Shown here: positions 38,295 to 63,305 of the stretch, piece by piece
Layout: each line of letters begins with the position of its first letter
Numbering within the stretch: position 1 is the first letter of the stretch
Assembly (NCBI GenBank): GCA_035621215.1
Contig: CP141729.1
Coordinates: 206,944-270,943, forward strand
Direction of reading: 5' to 3'
DNA length: 64,000 nucleotides
Source: Oscillospiraceae bacterium MB08-C2-2
Lineage (GTDB): Bacteria; Bacillota; Clostridia; Oscillospirales; Ruminococcaceae
Position numbers and translations under genes: made by a program
Notes under the pieces: model-generated
The model's input: only the letters and a program-made list of their open reading frames with translations
Told to the model about the DNA's origin: nothing
The model's database searches: none

Positions 38295-40937
38295 TTATCG
38301 GACTACTCTTCCGTTGGAAGGATTCAGGTTTGGGTTGTTGGTGGCGGATTCAGAGCCTGGGTTGGAAGAACCCGAGCCATTGCCGGAGGAACCAGAGCTT
38401 GAACCGGAACCCGAGCTGGAACTGTTTCCGTTACCGGATGCGGTGCTGCTTGAGGAGCTTTCTTCAACATTAGGGTCCTGCGAGGAAGAGGAAGAAGGTG
38501 TTTTCAAGGAGACTTTTTTATCTGTCAGATAATATTTGGAGGAGAATTTGACCTTATCCTTAGTGGTTCCCAGATAGTCACCCTGCTCATTATAGACATA
38601 CAGCTTTTCATCCATATCAAAGGAGGTTTTGGTGGAGGCACTGCTCAGGTTGACCTGAACCACATTATAAATTGCAACAATGTTATCGTATTTGTTGAGC
38701 ATTTTTTCATCGGCACTGGTCAAATCAGAAGTTACCTTAGCGGCGTACTTGCGGCCGTTGTACATTTTGGTGTGGAAGGAAATATTATGACCTGCATAGA
38801 TCTGAATATCCTTCAGATAAGCATTGGCTTTGGCGATTTGACCTTCGGATAAATCCACATAATCATCGCCTTCAAAAAGCTCGATAAGCTCATTGGAAAC
38901 CGTACCAGAAAGAGTTACCTCAGATTCTGTGTGGCGACGGCCATCCACAGAAAGATAAACAGTGAGTGAGAATTTGCGGTCGGAGGTAATAGCCAAGTCC
39001 TTCGCAAACTTAACCCGAACAAAGGACTTGCCGTTTTTGGAATCAACTTCAACACTGTTAATGAGGTCGGAGCCGGTTCTTTTGGTGGAACGGGCGGTAA
39101 TCTTGCCATTGCGCAGCATGGATTCGGTTACCGATACGGCCGGGGAAGGCTTGCCGTTTTTCCATTCAAAGAAGTTAGAATCAAAATCAAAGATGATATA
39201 ATCCCCCGGGCGAACCTCCAGATCATCCAGCGTTTCACCTGAACCAAGAGCACTGTCGTTACGGGTTACCACGTTGCCCAACCAAGCTCCGGAGCTGATA
39301 CCTGTGATCTTGTTGCCGCTGACTGGAACAGGGTTGCTGACAGTCAGATTGTTCATGTTGTAAGTATTGCTGGTGACAGAGCCAGACTGGAAATAGAGGC
39401 TTCTGTTGGCGGCGAAAAGGGCTCTTTTAGCGGTTAGTCTCAAGACAGCGGAACCGTCACTGGATGAAGCCGCTCTGCTCACAGAGGAACTGCCTGGAGA
39501 GACAGAAACATCGAAATCTGCGCTGTTGATTCCTTTAAGGTAAGGCTGGATCATGGCATAGGTGACTACCTTATCGCCGGTACCGGCCGACCACTGAAAG
39601 AAATTGGCAGGCAAAAGAAAGGTCATGACATCGCCAATGGCAAGGTTATTACCTAAACCATCGGTACGCTGTAAGCTGGCGCCTGCGGTGACGCCGGTAA
39701 TGGTGGGCGGTGTAGAAGGCACAGAAGCCGAGACCGTTACTGGTAAGTTAATGGTGACAGTTTGGCCATTCATAGAAGACTTACTGCCCTGGAGAGTGAC
39801 CGGTACAGTGGTGGAACCCACAGCCGCACTCGCACTGGCGGTAACCAAAAGGTTGGTGGTGTTGGGTTCAATGGAGGCGGTAAAGCCGGAAGCGGAGGTG
39901 GAAGCAGTGATGCCGTATGTTCCATTGAGGGTGGCATAGGTCAAAGCTTGGGTGGGGGTTCCCGCAAAGGTAAAGTGGCTGTTGGTCAGCGCCATGCGGA
40001 AGCTCTCGCCCTGCTTAACCGAAGAAGCAGCGGGAGAAATGTTGGATTTAAACCCGGTCATCAGGTCAGGGTTAGAAACGGTGACTGTAACCGGGAAGTT
40101 AATGGTAACGGTTTCCCCGTTCATAGCCGATTTGCTGCCCCGCAGAGTGACCTGCACAGTGGTGGAACCAACAGCCGCATTGGCAGCAGCGGTAATCAGC
40201 AGGTTGGTGGTGTTTGGCTCAATGGAGGCAGTAAAACCGGCAGCTGAAGTGGAAGCGGTGATGCCGTATGTTCCATTGAGGGTGGCATAGGTCAGAGCTT
40301 GAGCGGGGGTTCCCACAAAGGTAAAGTGGCTGTTGGCCAGCGCCATGCGGAAACTCTCGCCCTGCTTAATTGAAGCAGGGGCAGGGGAGATGTTGGTTTG
40401 AAAACCAGTCATCAGGTTAGGGTTAGCGGCTACATTTCCGGTTAGATACTGGAGAGGTGTAGCACTGGTGACAACACCTTCTGTATTGGTAATCGCCAGC
40501 TTAATAGGAATAGAAAAGTTTCGGGCAGTGGCAATTTCCTGCGATACAGTTAAATGAGCCAGCACTCTGGCATTGGCAGCACCGGGATTTTCCAGTGTGA
40601 AGGTGATACCAGAAAAAACACTGCCAAGAGTCTGTTGATCTGCAACACCTGCATTAATAAAGGCAGGTGTTGCAGAAGCATTAAGCAGATCGGCCTGAGT
40701 AATGTCGTTAGCCGGCGTGTTAAAAGCGCTGGCGCCCAGTGGAATGGTATAGGTTTGCCCGGGGGTCAAAGTGGCTACTCCAGCTGTAGCAAAGGAATAA
40801 GTGCTGGGTGTTCCTGCAACATTGGCAGAAAAGGGGGTGCCTGTTCCAGCGGAAAGAACCGGAGCTGCACTAACAGGCAGCCGGGCAAGTCCAAAAACCA
40901 GAACCACAGCCAGCATAAGTGAAAGAACACGTTTCAT
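38295..40937 (-). CDS. 880-aa secreted protein with two near-identical 114-aa Ig-like repeats and a Ser/Gly/Asn-rich C-terminal tail; function unknown (cell-surface protein)
   Basis: A signal peptide MKRVLSLMLAVVLVFGLARLPVSA is present. The internal repeat reads NP(N/D)LMTGF..NISPA...KQGESFRMAL.NSHFTF.GTP.QALTYATLNGTYGITASTS.... The C-terminus ...SSSSTASGNGNSSSSGSGSSSGSSGNGSGSS... carries no LPXTG. Confidence 0.6.
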   Translation of the reverse strand: MKRVLSLMLAVVLVFGLARLPVSAAPVLSAGTGTPFSANVAGTPSTYSFATAGVATLTPGQTYTIPLGASAFNTPANDITQADLLNASATPAFINAGVADQQTLGSVFSGITFTLENPGAANARVLAHLTVSQEIATARNFSIPIKLAITNTEGVVTSATPLQYLTGNVAANPNLMTGFQTNISPAPASIKQGESFRMALANSHFTFVGTPAQALTYATLNGTYGITASTSAAGFTASIEPNTTNLLITAAANAAVGSTTVQVTLRGSKSAMNGETVTINFPVTVTVSNPDLMTGFKSNISPAASSVKQGESFRMALTNSHFTFAGTPTQALTYATLNGTYGITASTSASGFTASIEPNTTNLLVTASASAAVGSTTVPVTLQGSKSSMNGQTVTINLPVTVSASVPSTPPTITGVTAGASLQRTDGLGNNLAIGDVMTFLLPANFFQWSAGTGDKVVTYAMIQPYLKGINSADFDVSVSPGSSSVSRAASSSDGSAVLRLTAKRALFAANRSLYFQSGSVTSNTYNMNNLTVSNPVPVSGNKITGISSGAWLGNVVTRNDSALGSGETLDDLEVRPGDYIIFDFDSNFFEWKNGKPSPAVSVTESMLRNGKITARSTKRTGSDLINSVEVDSKNGKSFVRVKFAKDLAITSDRKFSLTVYLSVDGRRHTESEVTLSGTVSNELIELFEGDDYVDLSEGQIAKANAYLKDIQIYAGHNISFHTKMYNGRKYAAKVTSDLTSADEKMLNKYDNIVAIYNVVQVNLSSASTKTSFDMDEKLYVYNEQGDYLGTTKDKVKFSSKYYLTDKKVSLKTPSSSSSQDPNVEESSSSSTASGNGNSSSSGSGSSSGSSGNGSGSSNPGSESATNNPNLNPSNGRVVR
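39747..40430. repeat. Tandem duplication (2 x about 342 bp, about 90% identical) inside the 880-aa gene
   Basis: The nucleotide blocks (...gtgatgccgtatgttccattgagggtggcataggtca...) are seen twice. The track's + strand ORFs 39604..39939 and 39952..40290 give near-identical antisense translations. Confidence 0.8.
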
Positions 40938-42659: not shown

Positions 42660-44114
42660 TTAACGGCCCCGCCAAAAGTTTTGAATCCCGGCAGTATCGG
42701 GATCGGTGGGGTCGGGTGTGACACCGATGTATTTGCAGGTCTCATGAAGAATGGGAGACAGCTTGCCGTATGTACCTGCCGTATGATGGACATAAGGCCC
42801 GTAGACCAGCTTTTCTTCCCACGCAACCCAATCGTTCACCTCAAACCAGCTGTAGGTTCCGGTGGTGGCGGGGCCTTCCACGCTTTTCCCCTGCCCCATC
42901 AACAGGCTATACTCGCCATGATCGCCGTCAAAGCGGCAAATGGTCATGTCTTCGTCTGTGCGCAGTTCAAAATAGCTTTTGCCCGGGGAGGGAGTAGCGG
43001 CCGGAATGTTGCGTACGGTACAGGCAGCGGGGTCCTTGGCCATACAGGGCGGGAAATTGCCGCAGTGCCAAAGAAGCTCAGCATTGGGATTGGTCGGGTG
43101 GCGAATGGTCAGATCGGCAAAGAAAACAGGGTCGGTATAAAGCCCAGCGGCCTGCATCAGGCGGGAGCTGATGGCACCGTGAATATCCATCTCGCAAACG
43201 ACCGGGATGCCGGTTTGGCCCACATAGCCGTTAACAGCGCAGGCCGAAATTCCCATAGCCGCCTGAAAAGCATCCCAGCAGCTGGTGGCTACAGCGTTGC
43301 AGTGGTATTTGCTGCAAAGAGCCTGCAAAGCCAGATAATAGGCCGCCATGTTTACAAGATCGTCATCATTTACCCCCACCGGTGTGGTAAGCTTGCTTAT
43401 AAGGGAAACCGTTTCGGCAATTTCATCCGGAGCAGTCTCTTTGAGTTCTTGGCTTGCTTGCTGCAGTTCCACCAGAGTAATGGGGAATACCCGGATGCCG
43501 AACCGTTCCAGCAGCTCACCTTCGTTGCAGATTACCGTCCAGAAGGCTTCTGGGCGGGTGCCGATCTGGAGAATTTTGGTTTCCTTGAAAGCTTTGACTG
43601 TGGCACAAACACTCACAAAGGCTTTATAACCCCGCTCCAGCACATCGCTTTCCAAAGGGGCGTTTGGCAGATAGGTGAAAGGAACGTTGACACGCCGCAG
43701 CGCTTTGCCGGTGGCGAACAGCCCGCATTGGGTATCACGGGCCCGACCAACGGAGGATATTTTAAAATCGATAGGGGTGGAAGGGTCGTTATCCTGCGGG
43801 CCCCATACCAGCACCGGTACATTCAAGCGGGATGCCACATATACAATGCTGGATTCACTGCCGAAGTTGCAGTGCGGCACAAAGAGACCATCCACACCTT
43901 CACGGCGAAACTTCTCTGTCACTGCAATGGCGCCATCTTCGGTTTCCAGCAGGCCCTGCTGGGTTACATCGTCAATATCCACGATTTCAACAACATCCTG
44001 CAGCCATCCGCTAATTTGCTGCAGAATGGTTTCACGCAGCTCAAAGGTTTCTGGATGGTTGAAGATATCGCGTTTTGTCGGAGCAAACCCGATTTTAATT
44101 CGGTCTCGTTTCAT
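42660..44114 (-). CDS. L-fucose/L-arabinose isomerase family protein (sugar isomerase)
   Basis: The 484-aa product begins MKRDRIKIGFAPTKRDIFNHPETF.... Its overall size and blocks (...VVCEMDIHGA..., ...HCGNFPP...) fit the FucI-like fold. Family-level call only. Confidence 0.5.
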   Translation of the reverse strand: MKRDRIKIGFAPTKRDIFNHPETFELRETILQQISGWLQDVVEIVDIDDVTQQGLLETEDGAIAVTEKFRREGVDGLFVPHCNFGSESSIVYVASRLNVPVLVWGPQDNDPSTPIDFKISSVGRARDTQCGLFATGKALRRVNVPFTYLPNAPLESDVLERGYKAFVSVCATVKAFKETKILQIGTRPEAFWTVICNEGELLERFGIRVFPITLVELQQASQELKETAPDEIAETVSLISKLTTPVGVNDDDLVNMAAYYLALQALCSKYHCNAVATSCWDAFQAAMGISACAVNGYVGQTGIPVVCEMDIHGAISSRLMQAAGLYTDPVFFADLTIRHPTNPNAELLWHCGNFPPCMAKDPAACTVRNIPAATPSPGKSYFELRTDEDMTICRFDGDHGEYSLLMGQGKSVEGPATTGTYSWFEVNDWVAWEEKLVYGPYVHHTAGTYGKLSPILHETCKYIGVTPDPTDPDTAGIQNFWRGR

Positions 44115-44317: not shown

Positions 44318-44575
44318 TTGTTTGTGCATAAAGAATTCACCGATACAATGTCCACTGAACAAATGCGTTTATTGTTCGACAGGCATTATATAAAACAGGG
44401 GGTAGATGAAAATTATCCCCTCTACACACAAGCTGTTGGCAAATCTACACGGACGATGTATAATATATACTCAAATAGATTGAAAACCAAAAAGGTTTTC
44501 AATTATCGGGTAAAACCCAAAACGTTATTCAACTATAAAGATAACGGCATGGCTTTTGAGACTTTGTGTGCCTAA
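44318..44575 (+). CDS. Hypothetical small basic protein
   Basis: The 85-aa ORF is immediately upstream of the membrane protein gene. Coding status is uncertain. Confidence 0.3.
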   Translation: MFVHKEFTDTMSTEQMRLLFDRHYIKQGVDENYPLYTQAVGKSTRTMYNIYSNRLKTKKVFNYRVKPKTLFNYKDNGMAFETLCA

Positions 44576-50440: not shown

Positions 50441-50624
50441 ATTCATACCATCCTTTAACATAATCTGAAAAAACAAGCATTTAAAACGGGTAAAGCAACC
50501 TCATGCCGAGCCTTTGAAAATTGATTGCACGGCATGACCATAGAGCTGTTCGTCTTCTAATTTCACTTAATTATATAACTGACAATAGAGATACTTTGAC
50601 AGCGTTTTTAAATTGTTCAGGTGC

Positions 50625-50773
50625 AAGGTTTTGTGGCGTGTGTTCGCAAATCCTTTCAGGCAGTCAATTAATGTATCTGAAACGGCAAGACAAGCCTGTT
50701 TTGCCATCAAACAGAGCGAAAATTGCTCTGTTTGCAAATGCGCTTCGCAAAGCGCATTTGTTTAGTGGACATT
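50625..50773 (+). repeat. Copy A of a 149-nt conserved structured element containing two adjacent perfect hairpins
   Basis: It is about 88% identical to 62389..62537. It contains CAAACAGAGC-gaaaatt-GCTCTGTTTG and CAAATGCGCTT-cgca-AAGCGCATTTG followed by TTT. It lies 315 nt upstream of the GGDEF/EAL gene. Confidence 0.7.
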
Positions 50774-51088
50774 ATATGGGTTATTATACTCTGATTCGGT
50801 CAAAAAAACAAATGAAGAAACCATGAACCTATATAGCCGTGTCGCAATACCGATTTTTTCATGTTTTTATGTTGCCTTTTGTTGCATTTGAAGTATGTAT
50901 TTGATATTATCATAGTGTACGCAAAAAAATCATTCGAAGAGCAAAGGGATGGATACTTATTGCATTTATCCCCAGCTTGTAGCAGCTTTTTTTATTGAGT
51001 GTGCCTTATAATTTATACATGCCGTAAAGCGGAAAAAACGGTGGGTTGATAACAGGCGAAGCACCGGCCGTGCAATGTTAAAGGGGGA

Positions 51089-62150: not shown

Positions 62151-62180
62151 TTGACGCAAAGCTGCTCTCTATGTTAAAAT
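62151..62180 (+). promoter_or_regulatory. Strong sigma-70-type promoter (TTGACG-18 nt-TAAAAT with a TGn extended -10); the predicted transcript start is at about 62187
   Basis: ttgacg at 62151-62156, tg at 62172-62173 and taaaat at 62175-62180. Confidence 0.5.
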
Positions 62181-62388
62181 AAAACCTATATTTTCACGCG
62201 CCGCTCCGGCGCAAAAAGTGGGATTCCTGTGTCGAAATCAATTCGACATAGGAAGAATTACGCATCAAAACCATAAGGTCTTCAAGTTGAAGTCAGTTAT
62301 GTCTACAGTCTGGCGCCCCGCTTCAGCGGGGCGTTTGCCTTATTTGGATGTAAGTTTTTCTGCCGAATACGGCAGAAAAACTTACACA

Positions 62389-62537
62389 AAGGATTTGTGG
62401 CGTGTGTCCGCAAATCCTTTTAGGCAGTCAATCAATGGTTCTGAAACATCAAAACAGGCCTGTTTTGCTGTCAACCAGAGCGAAAATTGCTCTGGTTGCA
62501 AGTGCGCTTCGCAAAGCGCATTTGTTCAGTGGACATT
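62389..62537 (+). repeat. Copy B of the 149-nt conserved structured element, 40 nt upstream of the Tyr-phosphatase start codon
   Basis: It aligns colinearly with 50625..50773. The hairpins are preserved by a compensatory A-T to C-G change (CAACCAGAGC...GCTCTGGTTG) and by a G-U wobble in the second stem, which is compatible with the + strand transcript only. Confidence 0.7.
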
Positions 62538-62576
62538 GTTTCACTCATTTTATTCAGGAAAGGGAGCGAGAAAGCG

Positions 62577-63305
62577 ATGGATACCCTTAAGGGCTACAAC
62601 ATCATTGATTTAGAGGGAGCTCGCAATGTGCGGGATTTGGGCGGCATACCCTGTGCGGGAGGCAAGCAAACGGCAATGGGGGTGTTCATCCGGGCGGCCG
62701 GTCTGGGGGATTTAACCGAGCGGGATCAGGAAATCCTGCTGGAATATGGGGTGGATTGCATCATTGATCTGCGCTCTCAGCGGGAGGTGTGTGATAAGCC
62801 GGATTCTCTGGCAGAGCATGAGAAGATTGTTTATCGGAATATTCCCATGCTGGATCAGGTGCAGTCTAATATTTCAAAGCAGGAGCTGATGTATCCCAGC
62901 TCGATGCAAACTATGTATATGGGGCTGCTTGATCTGGATGGAGAGCTGATTCGCCAGGTGTTCGATCTTTTGAGTGATCCTCAGTATCGGTGCATGGTTT
63001 TTCACTGCACAGCCGGCAAAGACCGCACCGGGATCATTGCCATGCTGCTTCTGGATTTGGCTGGGGTCAGCCGGGAGGATATCCTGCACAATTATGTGAT
63101 CAGCGGGGATCTGGTGCGCCCCTTGCTGCGGGCGCAGGAGATTGAGGGTATTCCCAGCTATGTGTTTGAATCCCGCCCGGAATTTATGGCGGATACCTAC
63201 ACACATCTTCAGCGGAAATACGGCGGGGCAAGAGAATATTTGCTTGCGCAGGGCAATACCCCCCAGCAGCTGGAAAGCCTGCTGAAAACGTTTGTGGAGC
63301 CCTAA
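62577..63305 (+). CDS. Protein-tyrosine phosphatase (Y_phosphatase3-like, CX5R P-loop)
   Basis: The start MDTLKGYNIIDLEGARNVRDLGG... leads to ...VFHCTAGKDRTGIIAMLLL..., an HCxxGxxR catalytic loop. Confidence 0.75.
   Translation: MDTLKGYNIIDLEGARNVRDLGGIPCAGGKQTAMGVFIRAAGLGDLTERDQEILLEYGVDCIIDLRSQREVCDKPDSLAEHEKIVYRNIPMLDQVQSNISKQELMYPSSMQTMYMGLLDLDGELIRQVFDLLSDPQYRCMVFHCTAGKDRTGIIAMLLLDLAGVSREDILHNYVISGDLVRPLLRAQEIEGIPSYVFESRPEFMADTYTHLQRKYGGAREYLLAQGNTPQQLESLLKTFVEP

What the first reader, a model, noticed from the sequence alone, without database searches (positions are those of the whole stretch)
50625..50773. Duplicated 149-nt structured element (copy A) upstream of the GGDEF/EAL gene
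Two copies (the second at 62389-62537) are colinear and about 88% identical. Their flanks are unrelated, so this is a discrete element rather than a segmental duplication. It contains two adjacent perfect stem-loops. The first, CAAACAGAGC/GCTCTGTTTG, differs from the other copy by a compensatory A:T to C:G pair. The second, CAAATGCGCTT/AAGCGCATTTG, is followed by TTT and looks like an intrinsic terminator or attenuator. Both copies precede + strand signalling genes (c-di-GMP enzyme; Tyr phosphatase). Candidates are a riboswitch-like leader, a small RNA or a protein operator.
Basis: seen in the sequence. Interest (0 to 1): 0.6.

Follow-up and report, generated by a model that had tools for sequence, protein, structure and literature searches.

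The report
Dispersed multi-hairpin repeat element, MITE-like
The duplicated 149-nt stretch is real, but it is two worn copies of a roughly 250-nt non-coding repeat of six hairpins scattered through Oscillospiraceae genomes, most likely a small mobile element and not a switch for the signalling genes next to it.

Summary
Positions 50625-50773 and 62389-62537 are colinear and 89% identical, and the hairpins and the compensatory pair are as described. The interpretation mostly does not hold.

Pattern scans found relatives in an Oscillibacter MAG and five distinct metagenome contigs. They show a full element of about 251 nt: 5' CTGCTGAACAA, six hairpins (hp-1, hp0 to hp4), then the tail TTGTTCAGTGGACATT. 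The two ends form a 20-24 bp inverted repeat.

- Copy A (50579-50773) has a decayed hp-1 and lacks hp0.
- Copy B (62340-62537) lacks hp-1.
- A 36-nt ends-only "mini" copy lies at 44347-44382 on the minus strand.

All six hairpins covary: 29 of 76 pairs show compensatory changes, 95% of cells pair, and 0 of 500 shuffles match this. Rfam, plasmid, phage and viral collections gave no real match.

Family members sit beside unrelated housekeeping genes, often between convergent genes, and they occur as truncated or internally deleted forms. Three orthologous intergenic sites in related genomes lack the element. Short-read contigs break inside it.

My best reading is a new MITE-like structured intergenic repeat family (confidence about 0.6). 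A multi-copy structured RNA gene is not excluded. A riboswitch or attenuator for c-di-GMP or phosphatase genes is very unlikely.

The parts
50579..50773 (+). Copy A of the repeat element (195 nt). Its 5' hairpin hp-1 is degenerate, hp0 is deleted, and hp1-hp4 plus the tail are intact.
   Evidence: Alignments A2/A3. nhmmer hit 50559-50778, E 1.5e-58. CM R1 scores 159.5 bits at 50621-50775.
50570..50578 (+). AT-rich outer left terminus of copy A (ATTATATAA). It corresponds to the family consensus TATWTAATGY that precedes CTGCTG.
   Evidence: Flank comparison.
50579..50621 (+). Remnant of hp-1 in copy A. The 5' arm is reduced to CTGACAAT. The loop ATACTTTGACAGCG and the 3' arm GCGTTTTTAAATTGTTCAGG are kept.
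   Evidence: Alignment A3 columns 21-88. Compare the full-length L004 copy.
50625..50655 (+). hp1: AAGGTTTTGTGG-CGTGTGT-TCGCAAATCCTT. The apical GGCGTGTGTYCGC is conserved and the outer stem covaries.
   Evidence: Helix 3: 7 of 14 pairs have compensatory changes and 97% of cells pair.
50656..50683 (+). Unpaired linker TCAGGCAGTCAATTAATGTATCTGAAAC, semi-conserved across the family.
   Evidence: Alignments A3/A4.
50684..50705 (+). hp2: GGCAAGACAAGCCTGTTTTGCC.
   Evidence: Helix 4: 4 of 9 pairs are compensatory.
50708..50734 (+). hp3: CAAACAGAGC-GAAAATT-GCTCTGTTTG.
   Evidence: Helix 5: 5 of 11 pairs are compensatory. The A:T to C:G swap against copy B is seen.
50735..50760 (+). hp4: CAAATGCGCTT-CGCA-AAGCGCATTTG.
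   Evidence: Helix 6: 100% paired and 2 of 10 pairs compensatory. The terminator scan does not call it.
50761..50773 (+). Conserved 3' tail TTTAGTGGACATT (family consensus TTCAGTGGACATT). In full-length copies it is the right arm of the terminal inverted repeat.
62340..62537 (+). Copy B (198 nt). hp-1 is missing except for a degenerate TTATTTGG. hp0-hp4 and the tail are intact. It starts 5 nt after the terminator of the upstream unit and ends 39 nt before the phosphatase ATG at 62577.
   Evidence: nhmmer hit 62320-62542, E 2.5e-65. CM R1 scores 165.5 bits.
62350..62385 (+). hp0 of copy B: GTAAGTTTTTCTGCCG-AATA-CGGCAGAAAAACTTAC.
   Evidence: Helix 2: 7 of 15 pairs are compensatory and 97% of cells pair.
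62389..62524 (+). hp1 (62389-62419), linker (62420-62449), hp2 (62450-62467), hp3 (62472-62498) and hp4 (62499-62524) of copy B.
62525..62537 (+). 3' tail TTCAGTGGACATT of copy B.
44347..44382 (-). 36-nt 'mini' copy: the 5' terminus CTGTCGAACAAT joined through AAACGC to the tail ATTTGTTCAGTGGACATT. TTATATAATGC precedes it.
   Evidence: nhmmer hit on the tail, E 6.4e-6. Sequence. The ends pair at 14 Watson-Crick + 6 G-U of 26 positions.

Best explanation
Copies A and B are two decayed members of a dispersed, non-coding repeat family. I found it only in Oscillospiraceae (Oscillibacter-like genomes and metagenome contigs). The intact element is about 251 nt. It starts with CTGCTGAACAA, carries six different hairpins (hp-1, hp0, hp1, hp2, hp3, hp4) with a 25-nt unpaired linker, and ends with TTGTTCAGTGGACATT. 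With their AT-rich outer few bases, the two ends form a 20-24 bp imperfect inverted repeat.

The most likely mechanism is that of a MITE-like non-autonomous mobile element. A transposase or recombinase encoded elsewhere recognises the inverted ends and places copies into AT-rich intergenic DNA, often next to terminators. Copies then decay by internal deletion, loss of the 5' end or IS insertion. When a neighbouring transcript reads through a copy, the plus strand folds into the hairpin series. That structure is under selection and probably acts as an RNA-end stabiliser, processing site or insulator, not as a ligand sensor.

Shown here:
- repeat family status, anatomy and inverted termini
- covariation in all six hairpins
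- varied gene contexts and truncated or deleted variants
- absence from three orthologous sites in relatives

Inferred, not shown:
- transposition itself, including the enzyme and any target duplication
- transcription
- any effect on RNA stability
For: 1. More copies with unrelated flanks: L002, L003-L008, L041. Partial copies are L004 4322-4440, L002 6103-6171, window 44347-44382 and L047 723-807.
2. Full length is 251-256 nt in four loci and 221 nt in L004.
3. Structure: 76 pairs in six helices, 94.9% of cells paired against 33-48% for slid controls, 29 pairs with compensatory change, and 0 of 500 shuffles reaching any measure. RNAalifold finds 25 compensatory pairs.
4. Termini pair at 16-21 Watson-Crick + 2-5 G-U of 26 positions in the five full-length copies, and at 12-14 + 5-6 in the two deleted copies L004b and mini.
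5. It is not coding. The only shared ORF has a stop in L003, no ATG in L006 and a frameshift in L004 (sequences).
6. Neighbours are unrelated housekeeping genes in every arrangement. Four copies lie between convergent genes and one is antisense to both neighbours.
7. Copies within a genome or sample cluster together (A-B 90%, L003-L008 93%), against 65-80% between lineages.
8. The element is absent at orthologous sites. The recO upstream region in 78-80% identical relatives is era-small ORF-recO with no element. The NlpC/P60-URO-D spacer is 63 or 98 nt in syntenic relatives against about 395 nt in L004. The spacer downstream of ireB lacks the second L004 copy.
9. Assemblies break in or next to the element. 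The Logan contigs of this very strain end at window 50737 and start at 62508, although A and B share no exact run longer than 24 nt. L040 starts 3 nt before recO and L041 starts inside the element.
10. Rfam, plasmid and phage searches gave no match. Of three viral-contig scans, two found nothing and the 18-mer hits of the third are chance matches in coding DNA.
Against: - No transposase with matching ends was found.
- Target-site duplication is not demonstrated. The 9-mers flanking the same copy match 5.75 of 9 on average, against 4.84 of 9 for cross-copy controls, and only L008 is perfect at 9 of 9.
- No clean empty site was obtained, because the spacers of the relatives have diverged.
- The genome-wide copy number in strain MB08-C2-2 could not be counted. 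Only three copies are seen in 64 kb.
- Maintenance of all six internal hairpins by compensatory change across lineages that are 65-80% identical is more than a transposase needs. Together with a G-U over A-C excess (22 against 8), this points to selection on a plus-strand RNA or single-stranded DNA fold, which also fits a functional RNA.
- The apparent invariance of the hp1 loop and the tail is partly an artefact of how L003-L008 were retrieved.
Confidence: 0.6

Rival explanations
1. It is a multi-copy gene family for a structured non-coding RNA of about 200-250 nt that acts in trans or as a ribonucleoprotein scaffold. The hairpins, the conserved hp1 loop and the linker would be functional sites. 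The long 5'/3' pairing would be a closing stem, not a transposon end. Partial copies would be pseudogenes.
For: - Covariation in all six helices is strong.
- G-U exceeds A-C 22 to 8 on the plus strand.
- The plus strand folds on average 5.6 kcal/mol better than the minus strand.
- The terminal helix contains two conserved wobble pairs (U-G and G-U) that would be mismatches in duplex DNA inverted repeats.
- The element persists across lineages at 65-80% identity.
Against: - There is no conserved promoter. Only a -10-like TATAAT sits at the 5' edge, with no -35 (flanks; scans).
- There is no convincing terminator at the 3' end.
- Three of eight copies fold better on the minus strand.
- Whole modules come and go: hp-1 is missing in B and L005, and hp0 is missing in A and L004.
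- Ends-only and internally deleted copies exist.
- It is absent from orthologous sites in relatives.
- Assemblies break at the element.
- The terminal helix is invariant, so it gives no covariation support.
Confidence: 0.22
2. It is a cis-regulatory leader (riboswitch or attenuator) that controls the downstream GGDEF/EAL and Tyr-phosphatase genes through premature termination at hp4.
For: - Both window copies lie upstream of, and co-oriented with, a plus-strand signalling gene.
- hp4 is a strong hairpin followed by TTT or TTC.
- In copy B a terminator precedes the element and only 39 nt separate it from the ATG, so the element lies where the phosphatase gene's promoter or leader should be.
Against: - Other members lie downstream of genes, between convergent genes or antisense to them, next to unrelated functions.
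- hp4 is not called as a terminator and no anti-terminator alternative is evident.
- Copy A ends 315 nt before the GGDEF/EAL start, with promoter-like sequence in between.
- Copies A and B lack different modules.
- recO orthologues in relatives lack the element.
- Rfam has no match.
Confidence: 0.03
3. It is a DNA-level site array. The three copies of TTGTTCAG/CTGAACAA (left end, internal, right end) and the hairpins would be binding or recombination sites for a host or mobile-element protein, such as a site-specific recombinase, a nucleoid protein or an operator. The hairpins would matter as cruciforms or as single-stranded DNA.
For: - The 8-nt motif occurs three times in a fixed arrangement.
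- Short forms begin at the internal motif (B and L005).
- In L008 a 15 of 16 match to the element's 3' end plus flank (GACGTTATTTGATGC against GACATTATTTGATGC) also sits immediately 5' of the element. This resembles paired attachment sites.
Against: - No associated protein gene is conserved next to any copy.
- Compensatory changes that preserve pairing while the sequence changes argue for a folded single strand, not a duplex sequence read by a protein.
- The G-U excess is strand-specific.
Confidence: 0.08

Closest known systems
Correia elements (NEMIS) of Neisseria, a prokaryotic MITE (from my own knowledge and the reviews listed: PMC10969869, PMC2229807)
   Same: - Non-coding element of about 100-250 nt with long (about 25 bp) inverted termini that would form a closing hairpin in read-through transcripts.
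- Dispersed in intergenic regions.
- Length variants exist that arise by internal deletion.
- No transposase of its own.
   Different: - No sequence similarity, and a different phylum.
- Correia elements have a defined TA target duplication. No duplication could be shown here.
- Correia elements do not carry six distinct internal hairpins maintained by covariation.
BOX elements of Streptococcus pneumoniae and ERIC/IRU of enterobacteria (structured intergenic repeats; from my own knowledge)
   Same: - Modular hairpin-forming units whose modules are variably present, like boxA-boxB(n)-boxC.
- Located in intergenic regions of housekeeping genes in either relation to neighbours.
- Thought to act on RNA when co-transcribed.
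   Different: - Different sequence and taxon.
- This element has long inverted termini and a fixed order of six different hairpins.
- Copy number per genome is unknown here.
bcr1 and related repeats of the Bacillus cereus group (Firmicutes MITEs with stable predicted RNA structure; from my own knowledge)
   Same: - A repeat of about 150-250 nt in Firmicutes, AT-rich at its ends, with a strongly folding transcript.
- Degenerate copies are common.
   Different: - bcr1 has a specific TTTAT duplication and many near-identical copies.
- Here copies are 65-93% identical, and no duplication or copy count is established.
Riboswitch or attenuator leaders
   Same: It is a structured plus-strand element that, in the window, lies upstream of genes and ends in a strong hairpin.
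   Different: - No conserved gene association.
- No U-tract terminator and no alternative pairing.
- Modules are lost freely.
- No Rfam match.

Membership tests
Prokaryotic MITE (non-autonomous transposable element) | Small (under about 500 bp) with no coding capacity | tested here: met
   Length is 221-256 nt. The only shared ORF is broken by a stop in L003, lacks an ATG in L006 and is frameshifted in L004 (sequences).
Prokaryotic MITE (non-autonomous transposable element) | Terminal inverted repeats | tested here: met
   5' ..ATAATGY-CTGCTGAACAA pairs with TTGTTCAGTGG-ACATTAT.. 3'. The five full-length copies pair at 16-21 Watson-Crick + 2-5 G-U of 26 positions. The two deleted copies L004b and mini pair at 12-14 + 5-6. 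Two positions are always G-T mismatches at the DNA level.
Prokaryotic MITE (non-autonomous transposable element) | Target-site duplication flanking each copy | tested here: inconclusive
   L008 is perfect at 9 of 9 (ATTTGATGC), L003 and L004b match 7 of 9. The same-copy mean of 5.75 of 9 barely exceeds the cross-copy control of 4.84 of 9. The AT-rich flanks are similar in all copies.
Prokaryotic MITE (non-autonomous transposable element) | Several dispersed copies in one genome | tested here: met
   There are three copies in this 64-kb window, two in L004 within 1.7 kb, and two in L002. Short-read contigs of the same strain break inside both window copies. A whole-genome count was not possible.
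Prokaryotic MITE (non-autonomous transposable element) | Presence/absence at orthologous sites in related genomes | tested here: met
   The element is absent upstream of recO in 78-80% identical relatives. It is absent from the NlpC/P60-URO-D and ireB-downstream spacers of syntenic relatives. No nucleotide-exact empty site was found, so loss cannot be told from gain.
Prokaryotic MITE (non-autonomous transposable element) | A full-length IS with the same ends encoding the transposase | not testable with these tools
   None occurs in the window or in the fetched loci. The IS3-family gene in L005 abuts a truncated copy and does not share its ends. No IS database was available.
Riboswitch / cis-regulatory leader | Conserved position in the 5' UTR of functionally related genes | tested here: not met
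   Neighbours are GGDEF/EAL, Y_phosphatase3, recO, NlpC/P60, URO-D, VanW, GyrI-like, RecF-like, ireB/pheT and an IS3 transposase. Four copies lie between convergent genes.
Riboswitch / cis-regulatory leader | Expression platform: an intrinsic terminator with a U-tract, or RBS sequestration with mutually exclusive pairing | tested here: not met
   The terminator scan calls nothing at hp4 in either copy. The tail is TTYAGTGGACATT. The RBS of the phosphatase gene lies outside the element.
Any Rfam family | Covariance-model match at or near the gathering score | tested here: not met
   Only a tRNA and an SRP RNA pass threshold, both elsewhere. On the element itself, low-scoring hairpin matches to miRNA and sRNA models fall far below the gathering score.
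REP/BIME (RAYT-mobilised palindromes) | A short (20-40 nt) palindromic unit repeated in alternating orientation | tested here: not met
   The unit is about 250 nt and consists of six hairpins of different sequence in a fixed order.
Independent small-RNA gene | Conserved promoter upstream and terminator downstream of every copy | tested here: not met
   No conserved -35 is present. B and L005 lack the 5' end altogether. No terminator is called at the 3' end. Transcription itself cannot be tested here.

The most novel reading that the evidence does not exclude
The family is a previously undescribed class of structured RNA of about 250 nt: six covarying helices, a conserved heptaloop hairpin and a conserved single-stranded linker. 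Its fold would be the functional entity, either as a trans-acting or ribonucleoprotein RNA or as the active RNA or single-stranded-DNA intermediate of a new kind of small mobile element, and not a passive MITE.
Probability: 0.15. Interest if true: 0.65.

Novelty: new member of a known kind. Interest (0 to 1): 0.35.

Why it matters
- It removes a false lead. Nothing here points to a new c-di-GMP or phosphatase riboswitch.
- It defines a repeat family that is not in Rfam and matched nothing in the plasmid, phage or viral collections searched. This family fragments short-read assemblies of Oscillospiraceae and could be mis-annotated as small ORFs or regulatory RNAs. A covariance model of it would improve annotation of gut and digester Clostridia.
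- If the unusually strong conservation of six internal hairpins reflects an RNA-level function, the family would be a useful case of a mobile repeat under structural selection.
- Copy B sits exactly where the phosphatase gene's promoter or leader must be, so it offers a direct test of whether such insertions rewire expression.

Tried and rejected
1. Rfam at gathering and at permissive thresholds, on the window and on full-length copies: nothing relevant.
2. blastn of copy A and of full-length copies against plasmids and phages: no match.
3. Viral-contig scans. The hp4 24-mer and the hp1 19-mer gave 0 hits. The tail 18-mer gave 30 hits, but these fall in coding sequence of one heavily sampled phage gene family plus two others. 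None has any other part of the element, so they are chance matches.
4. Small-protein hypothesis (MxLKRQNRPVL..., about 35-50 aa, inside the element): rejected because of a stop in L003, no ATG in L006 and a frameshift in L004.
5. The idea that the gene next to the mini copy (42660-44114) is the missing transposase: rejected, because it is a fucose-isomerase-like protein.
6. Orthologous empty sites for the window copies: impossible, because the closest phosphatase homologue is only 47% identical.
7. A nucleotide-exact empty site for the L004 copies: synteny is conserved, but the spacer sequences are too diverged.
8. A conserved outward or inward promoter in the termini: reading the flanks by eye gave no consistent -35/-10 pair.
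9. Strand assignment from folding energies: mixed, with 5 of 8 copies favouring the plus strand.
10. A long-range helix between TGTTCA (internal) and TGGACA (tail) proposed by RNAalifold: it is invariant and therefore uninformative.

Full report
OBSERVATION

Positions 50625-50773 and 62389-62537 align without gaps, and 133 of 149 positions are identical, or 89%. The repeat finder lists them as one two-copy family (D3). Motifs of 19-27 nt from the element occur only in these two places, with essentially zero chance expectation.

The two stem-loops (50708-50734 and 50735-60) and the A:T to C:G compensatory pair between the copies are real. Both copies fold far better than shuffled controls on either strand, with z of -5.0 to -6.5.

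ORGANISM

The window comes from the chromosome of Oscillospiraceae bacterium MB08-C2-2, isolated from black soldier fly larval faeces (GenBank CP141729.1). The phosphatase at 62577-63305 is 100% identical to that strain's protein, and the next homologue is only 47% identical (PMC12697180).

MORE COPIES

- Rfam gave nothing on the element at gathering or permissive thresholds.
- Plasmid, phage and viral collections gave no real match. The 30 viral hits to an 18-mer of the tail are coding sequence of unrelated phage genes.
- One scan of species-representative genomes with the hp4 21-mer found a single copy in an Oscillibacter MAG (L002).
- One metagenome scan with a two-block pattern (hp1 apex ... 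tail) found six loci, five of them distinct (L003-L008).
- nhmmer with the resulting alignment then found unselected partial copies: L004 4322-4440, L002 6103-6171, window 44347-44382, and later L047 723-807.
- A covariance model (R1) finds no further full copy in the window.

ANATOMY

The intact element is 251-256 nt. It is 221 nt in L004, which lacks one hairpin. From 5' to 3':

- an AT-rich edge, TATWTAATGY
- CTGCTGAACAA, which opens hp-1, a 17-19 bp hairpin whose 3' arm is GTTTTTGAATTGTTCAGG
- hp0
- hp1, with apex GCGG-CGTGTGT-CCGC
- an unpaired linker of about 25 nt, CAGGCAGTCAATCAATGCATCTG
- hp2, hp3 and hp4
- the tail TTGTTCAGTGGACATT, followed by AT-rich sequence

Copy A really spans about 50579-50773. 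It keeps the loop and 3' arm of hp-1 but only a stub of the 5' arm, and hp0 is deleted. Copy B spans about 62340-62537. It has hp0 (62350-62385) but no hp-1. The third window copy (44347-44382, minus strand) is just the 5' terminus joined to the last 24 nt.

STRUCTURE

On the eight-sequence alignment A3, the six-hairpin structure has 76 pairs:

- 94.9% of cells form standard pairs, against 33-48% when partners are slid by 1-3 columns.
- 29 pairs show changes on both sides.
- None of 500 shuffles reaches the observed values.
- Every helix has compensatory pairs: 4, 7, 7, 4, 5 and 2 respectively.
- RNAalifold independently recovers hp0-hp4 with 25 compensatory pairs.

The 5' end CTGCTGAACAA can also pair with the tail TTGTTCAGTGG. 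With the AT-rich outer bases, this gives 16-21 Watson-Crick plus 2-5 G-U pairs of 26 in the five full-length copies, and 12-14 plus 5-6 in the two deleted copies. This helix is invariant, so covariation says nothing for or against it. At the DNA level it is a 20-24 bp imperfect terminal inverted repeat.

Strand evidence is weak. G-U outnumbers A-C 22 to 8 in the stems. The plus strand folds on average 5.6 kcal/mol better, but only in 5 of 8 copies.

One caveat applies. The apparent invariance of the hp1 apex and the tail in L003-L008 was imposed by the search pattern. The independently found L004 partial copy has GCGGCATATCCGC and CAGCGGACATT.

NOT CODING

The element contains an ATG-initiated frame in A, B and some other copies. 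That frame has a stop in L003, no ATG in L006 and a frameshift in L004.

CONTEXT

In the window the neighbours are LemA (divergent) and GGDEF/EAL for copy A, and a LUD-domain gene and Y_phosphatase3 for copy B. Elsewhere the element lies:

- upstream of recO-mutS2 (L002)
- between convergent NlpC/P60 and URO-D genes (L004)
- antisense between ireB and the next gene (second L004 copy)
- 25 nt after the stop codon of a GyrI-like gene and convergent to VanW (L006)
- after a terminator and convergent to a RecF-like gene (L008)
- overlapping the stop codon of an unannotated ORF (L003)
- truncated about 190 nt downstream of an IS3-family transposase (L005)

There is no functional theme and no fixed relation to the neighbouring genes.

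hp4 is not called as an intrinsic terminator in either window copy. Copy A ends 315 nt before the GGDEF/EAL start, with promoter-like sequence in between. These facts argue against a leader, riboswitch or attenuator.

DYNAMICS

Copies within one genome or sample resemble each other more (A-B 90%, L003-L008 93%) than copies from different lineages (65-80%). Three orthologous sites could be examined in relatives.

- RecO proteins 78-80% identical to that of L002 sit in an era-small ORF-recO arrangement without the element.
- Contigs carrying URO-D proteins 87% and 81% identical to that of L004 keep the synteny pheT-ireB-ORF-NlpC/P60, convergent with URO-D. Their NlpC/P60-URO-D spacers are 63 and 98 nt, against about 395 nt in L004. 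Their ireB-downstream spacers lack the second L004 copy.
- The spacers have diverged too far to give a nucleotide-exact empty site, so gain cannot formally be separated from loss.

Assemblies break at the element. Two Logan contigs from this very strain's Illumina run (about 500x coverage) end at window 50737 and begin at 62508, both inside hp4. Copies A and B share no exact run longer than 24 nt. Assuming the assembler used k-mers of about 31 nt, which is my own knowledge of Logan, this implies further near-identical copies elsewhere in the genome. In the Oscillibacter species, one MAG contig starts 3 nt before recO. Another starts inside the element and carries a variant hp1-hp2.

TARGET DUPLICATION

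The 9 nt before CTGCTG and the 9 nt after GGACATT are identical in L008 and similar in L003 and L004. However, flanks of different copies are almost as similar to each other (5.75 against 4.84 of 9). This may be a target preference, part of the inverted repeat, or a decayed duplication. It is unresolved.

INTERPRETATION

A dispersed, MITE-like structured repeat fits these findings best:

- a small non-coding unit with inverted termini
- several copies per genome with unrelated flanks
- truncated, internally deleted and ends-only derivatives
- absence from orthologous sites
- assembly breaks
- a preference for AT-rich intergenic DNA near terminators

Comparable families are Correia, BOX/ERIC and bcr1. 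The element differs from them in its six distinct internal hairpins, which are kept by compensatory substitutions across lineages. That implies selection on a folded single strand, most simply the plus-strand RNA made by read-through.

I put 0.6 on this reading. The rivals are:

- 0.22 on a multi-copy structured RNA gene family
- 0.08 on a DNA-level protein-site array

Transposition, the enzyme, transcription and any RNA-level effect are all inferred, not shown.

VERDICT

It is a new member of a known kind, of modest interest (0.35). There is a 0.15 chance that the fold itself is a new functional RNA class.

Noticed in passing
window 62151-62335 (+): A promoter-like site (TTGACG-18-TAAAAT with an upstream TG) is followed by about 150 nt that fold strongly (z -6.2) and end in a clean intrinsic terminator at 62312-62335. 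There is a sub-threshold RsmY-like Rfam hit (23 bits against a gathering score of 57), and GGA motifs are present. This is a candidate small RNA between the LUD-domain gene and copy B.
   Followed up: partly
window 44347-44382 (-): A 36-nt ends-only copy of the element (5' terminus plus tail) lies in the spacer between a fucose-isomerase-like gene and an ABC_trans_CmpB gene. It shares a 23-nt exact run with copy B.
   Followed up: yes
L005 91-1095 and 1290-1491: An IS3-family transposase ORF (rve, HTH_21) ends about 190 nt upstream of a copy that lacks hp-1. The truncation looks like an IS insertion into the element.
   Followed up: partly
L041 1-163 versus L002 5386-5540: Two MAGs encode an identical RecO, but the hp1-linker-hp2 part of the upstream element differs at many positions while hp3 onward is identical. 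This is either a chimeric assembly through another copy of the repeat or gene conversion between copies.
   Followed up: no
L008 6670-6694 (-) and 6395-6421 (-): The sequence CTTTGTAGTGGACGTTATTTGATGC lies immediately 5' of the element and nearly repeats the element's own 3' end plus flank (ATTTGTTCAGTGGACATTATTTGATGC). It could be a remnant of a tandem copy, an attachment-site-like duplication, or a 9-bp target duplication next to a site that resembles the element's end.
   Followed up: partly
L004 5990-6035: In the copy that lacks hp0, the segment GGCACACGCGC is complementary to the otherwise unpaired hp1 apex GCGTGTGTCC. The minimum-energy fold uses this alternative pairing. It is seen in this copy only.
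   Followed up: no
window 13452-13757: A tandem array with an 18-nt period, seen as 11 overlapping 126-nt registers at 65-88% identity (family D1). It is probably a six-residue repeat in a protein.
   Followed up: no
window 39723-40373: Two 300-nt direct repeats, 85% identical and spaced 351 nt apart, with a weaker third unit (families D2 and D4). They probably encode repeated protein domains.
   Followed up: no
window 43172: The Logan short-read contig that ends inside copy A has its other end here, inside the fucose-isomerase-like gene, for no reason visible in the window.
   Followed up: no
L042 1217-1327, L044 151-255: A conserved 34-36-aa ORF (MDAEILWELFYMTGEPLAYALYREAVE...) lies between era and recO in Oscillibacter relatives that lack the element.
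   Followed up: no
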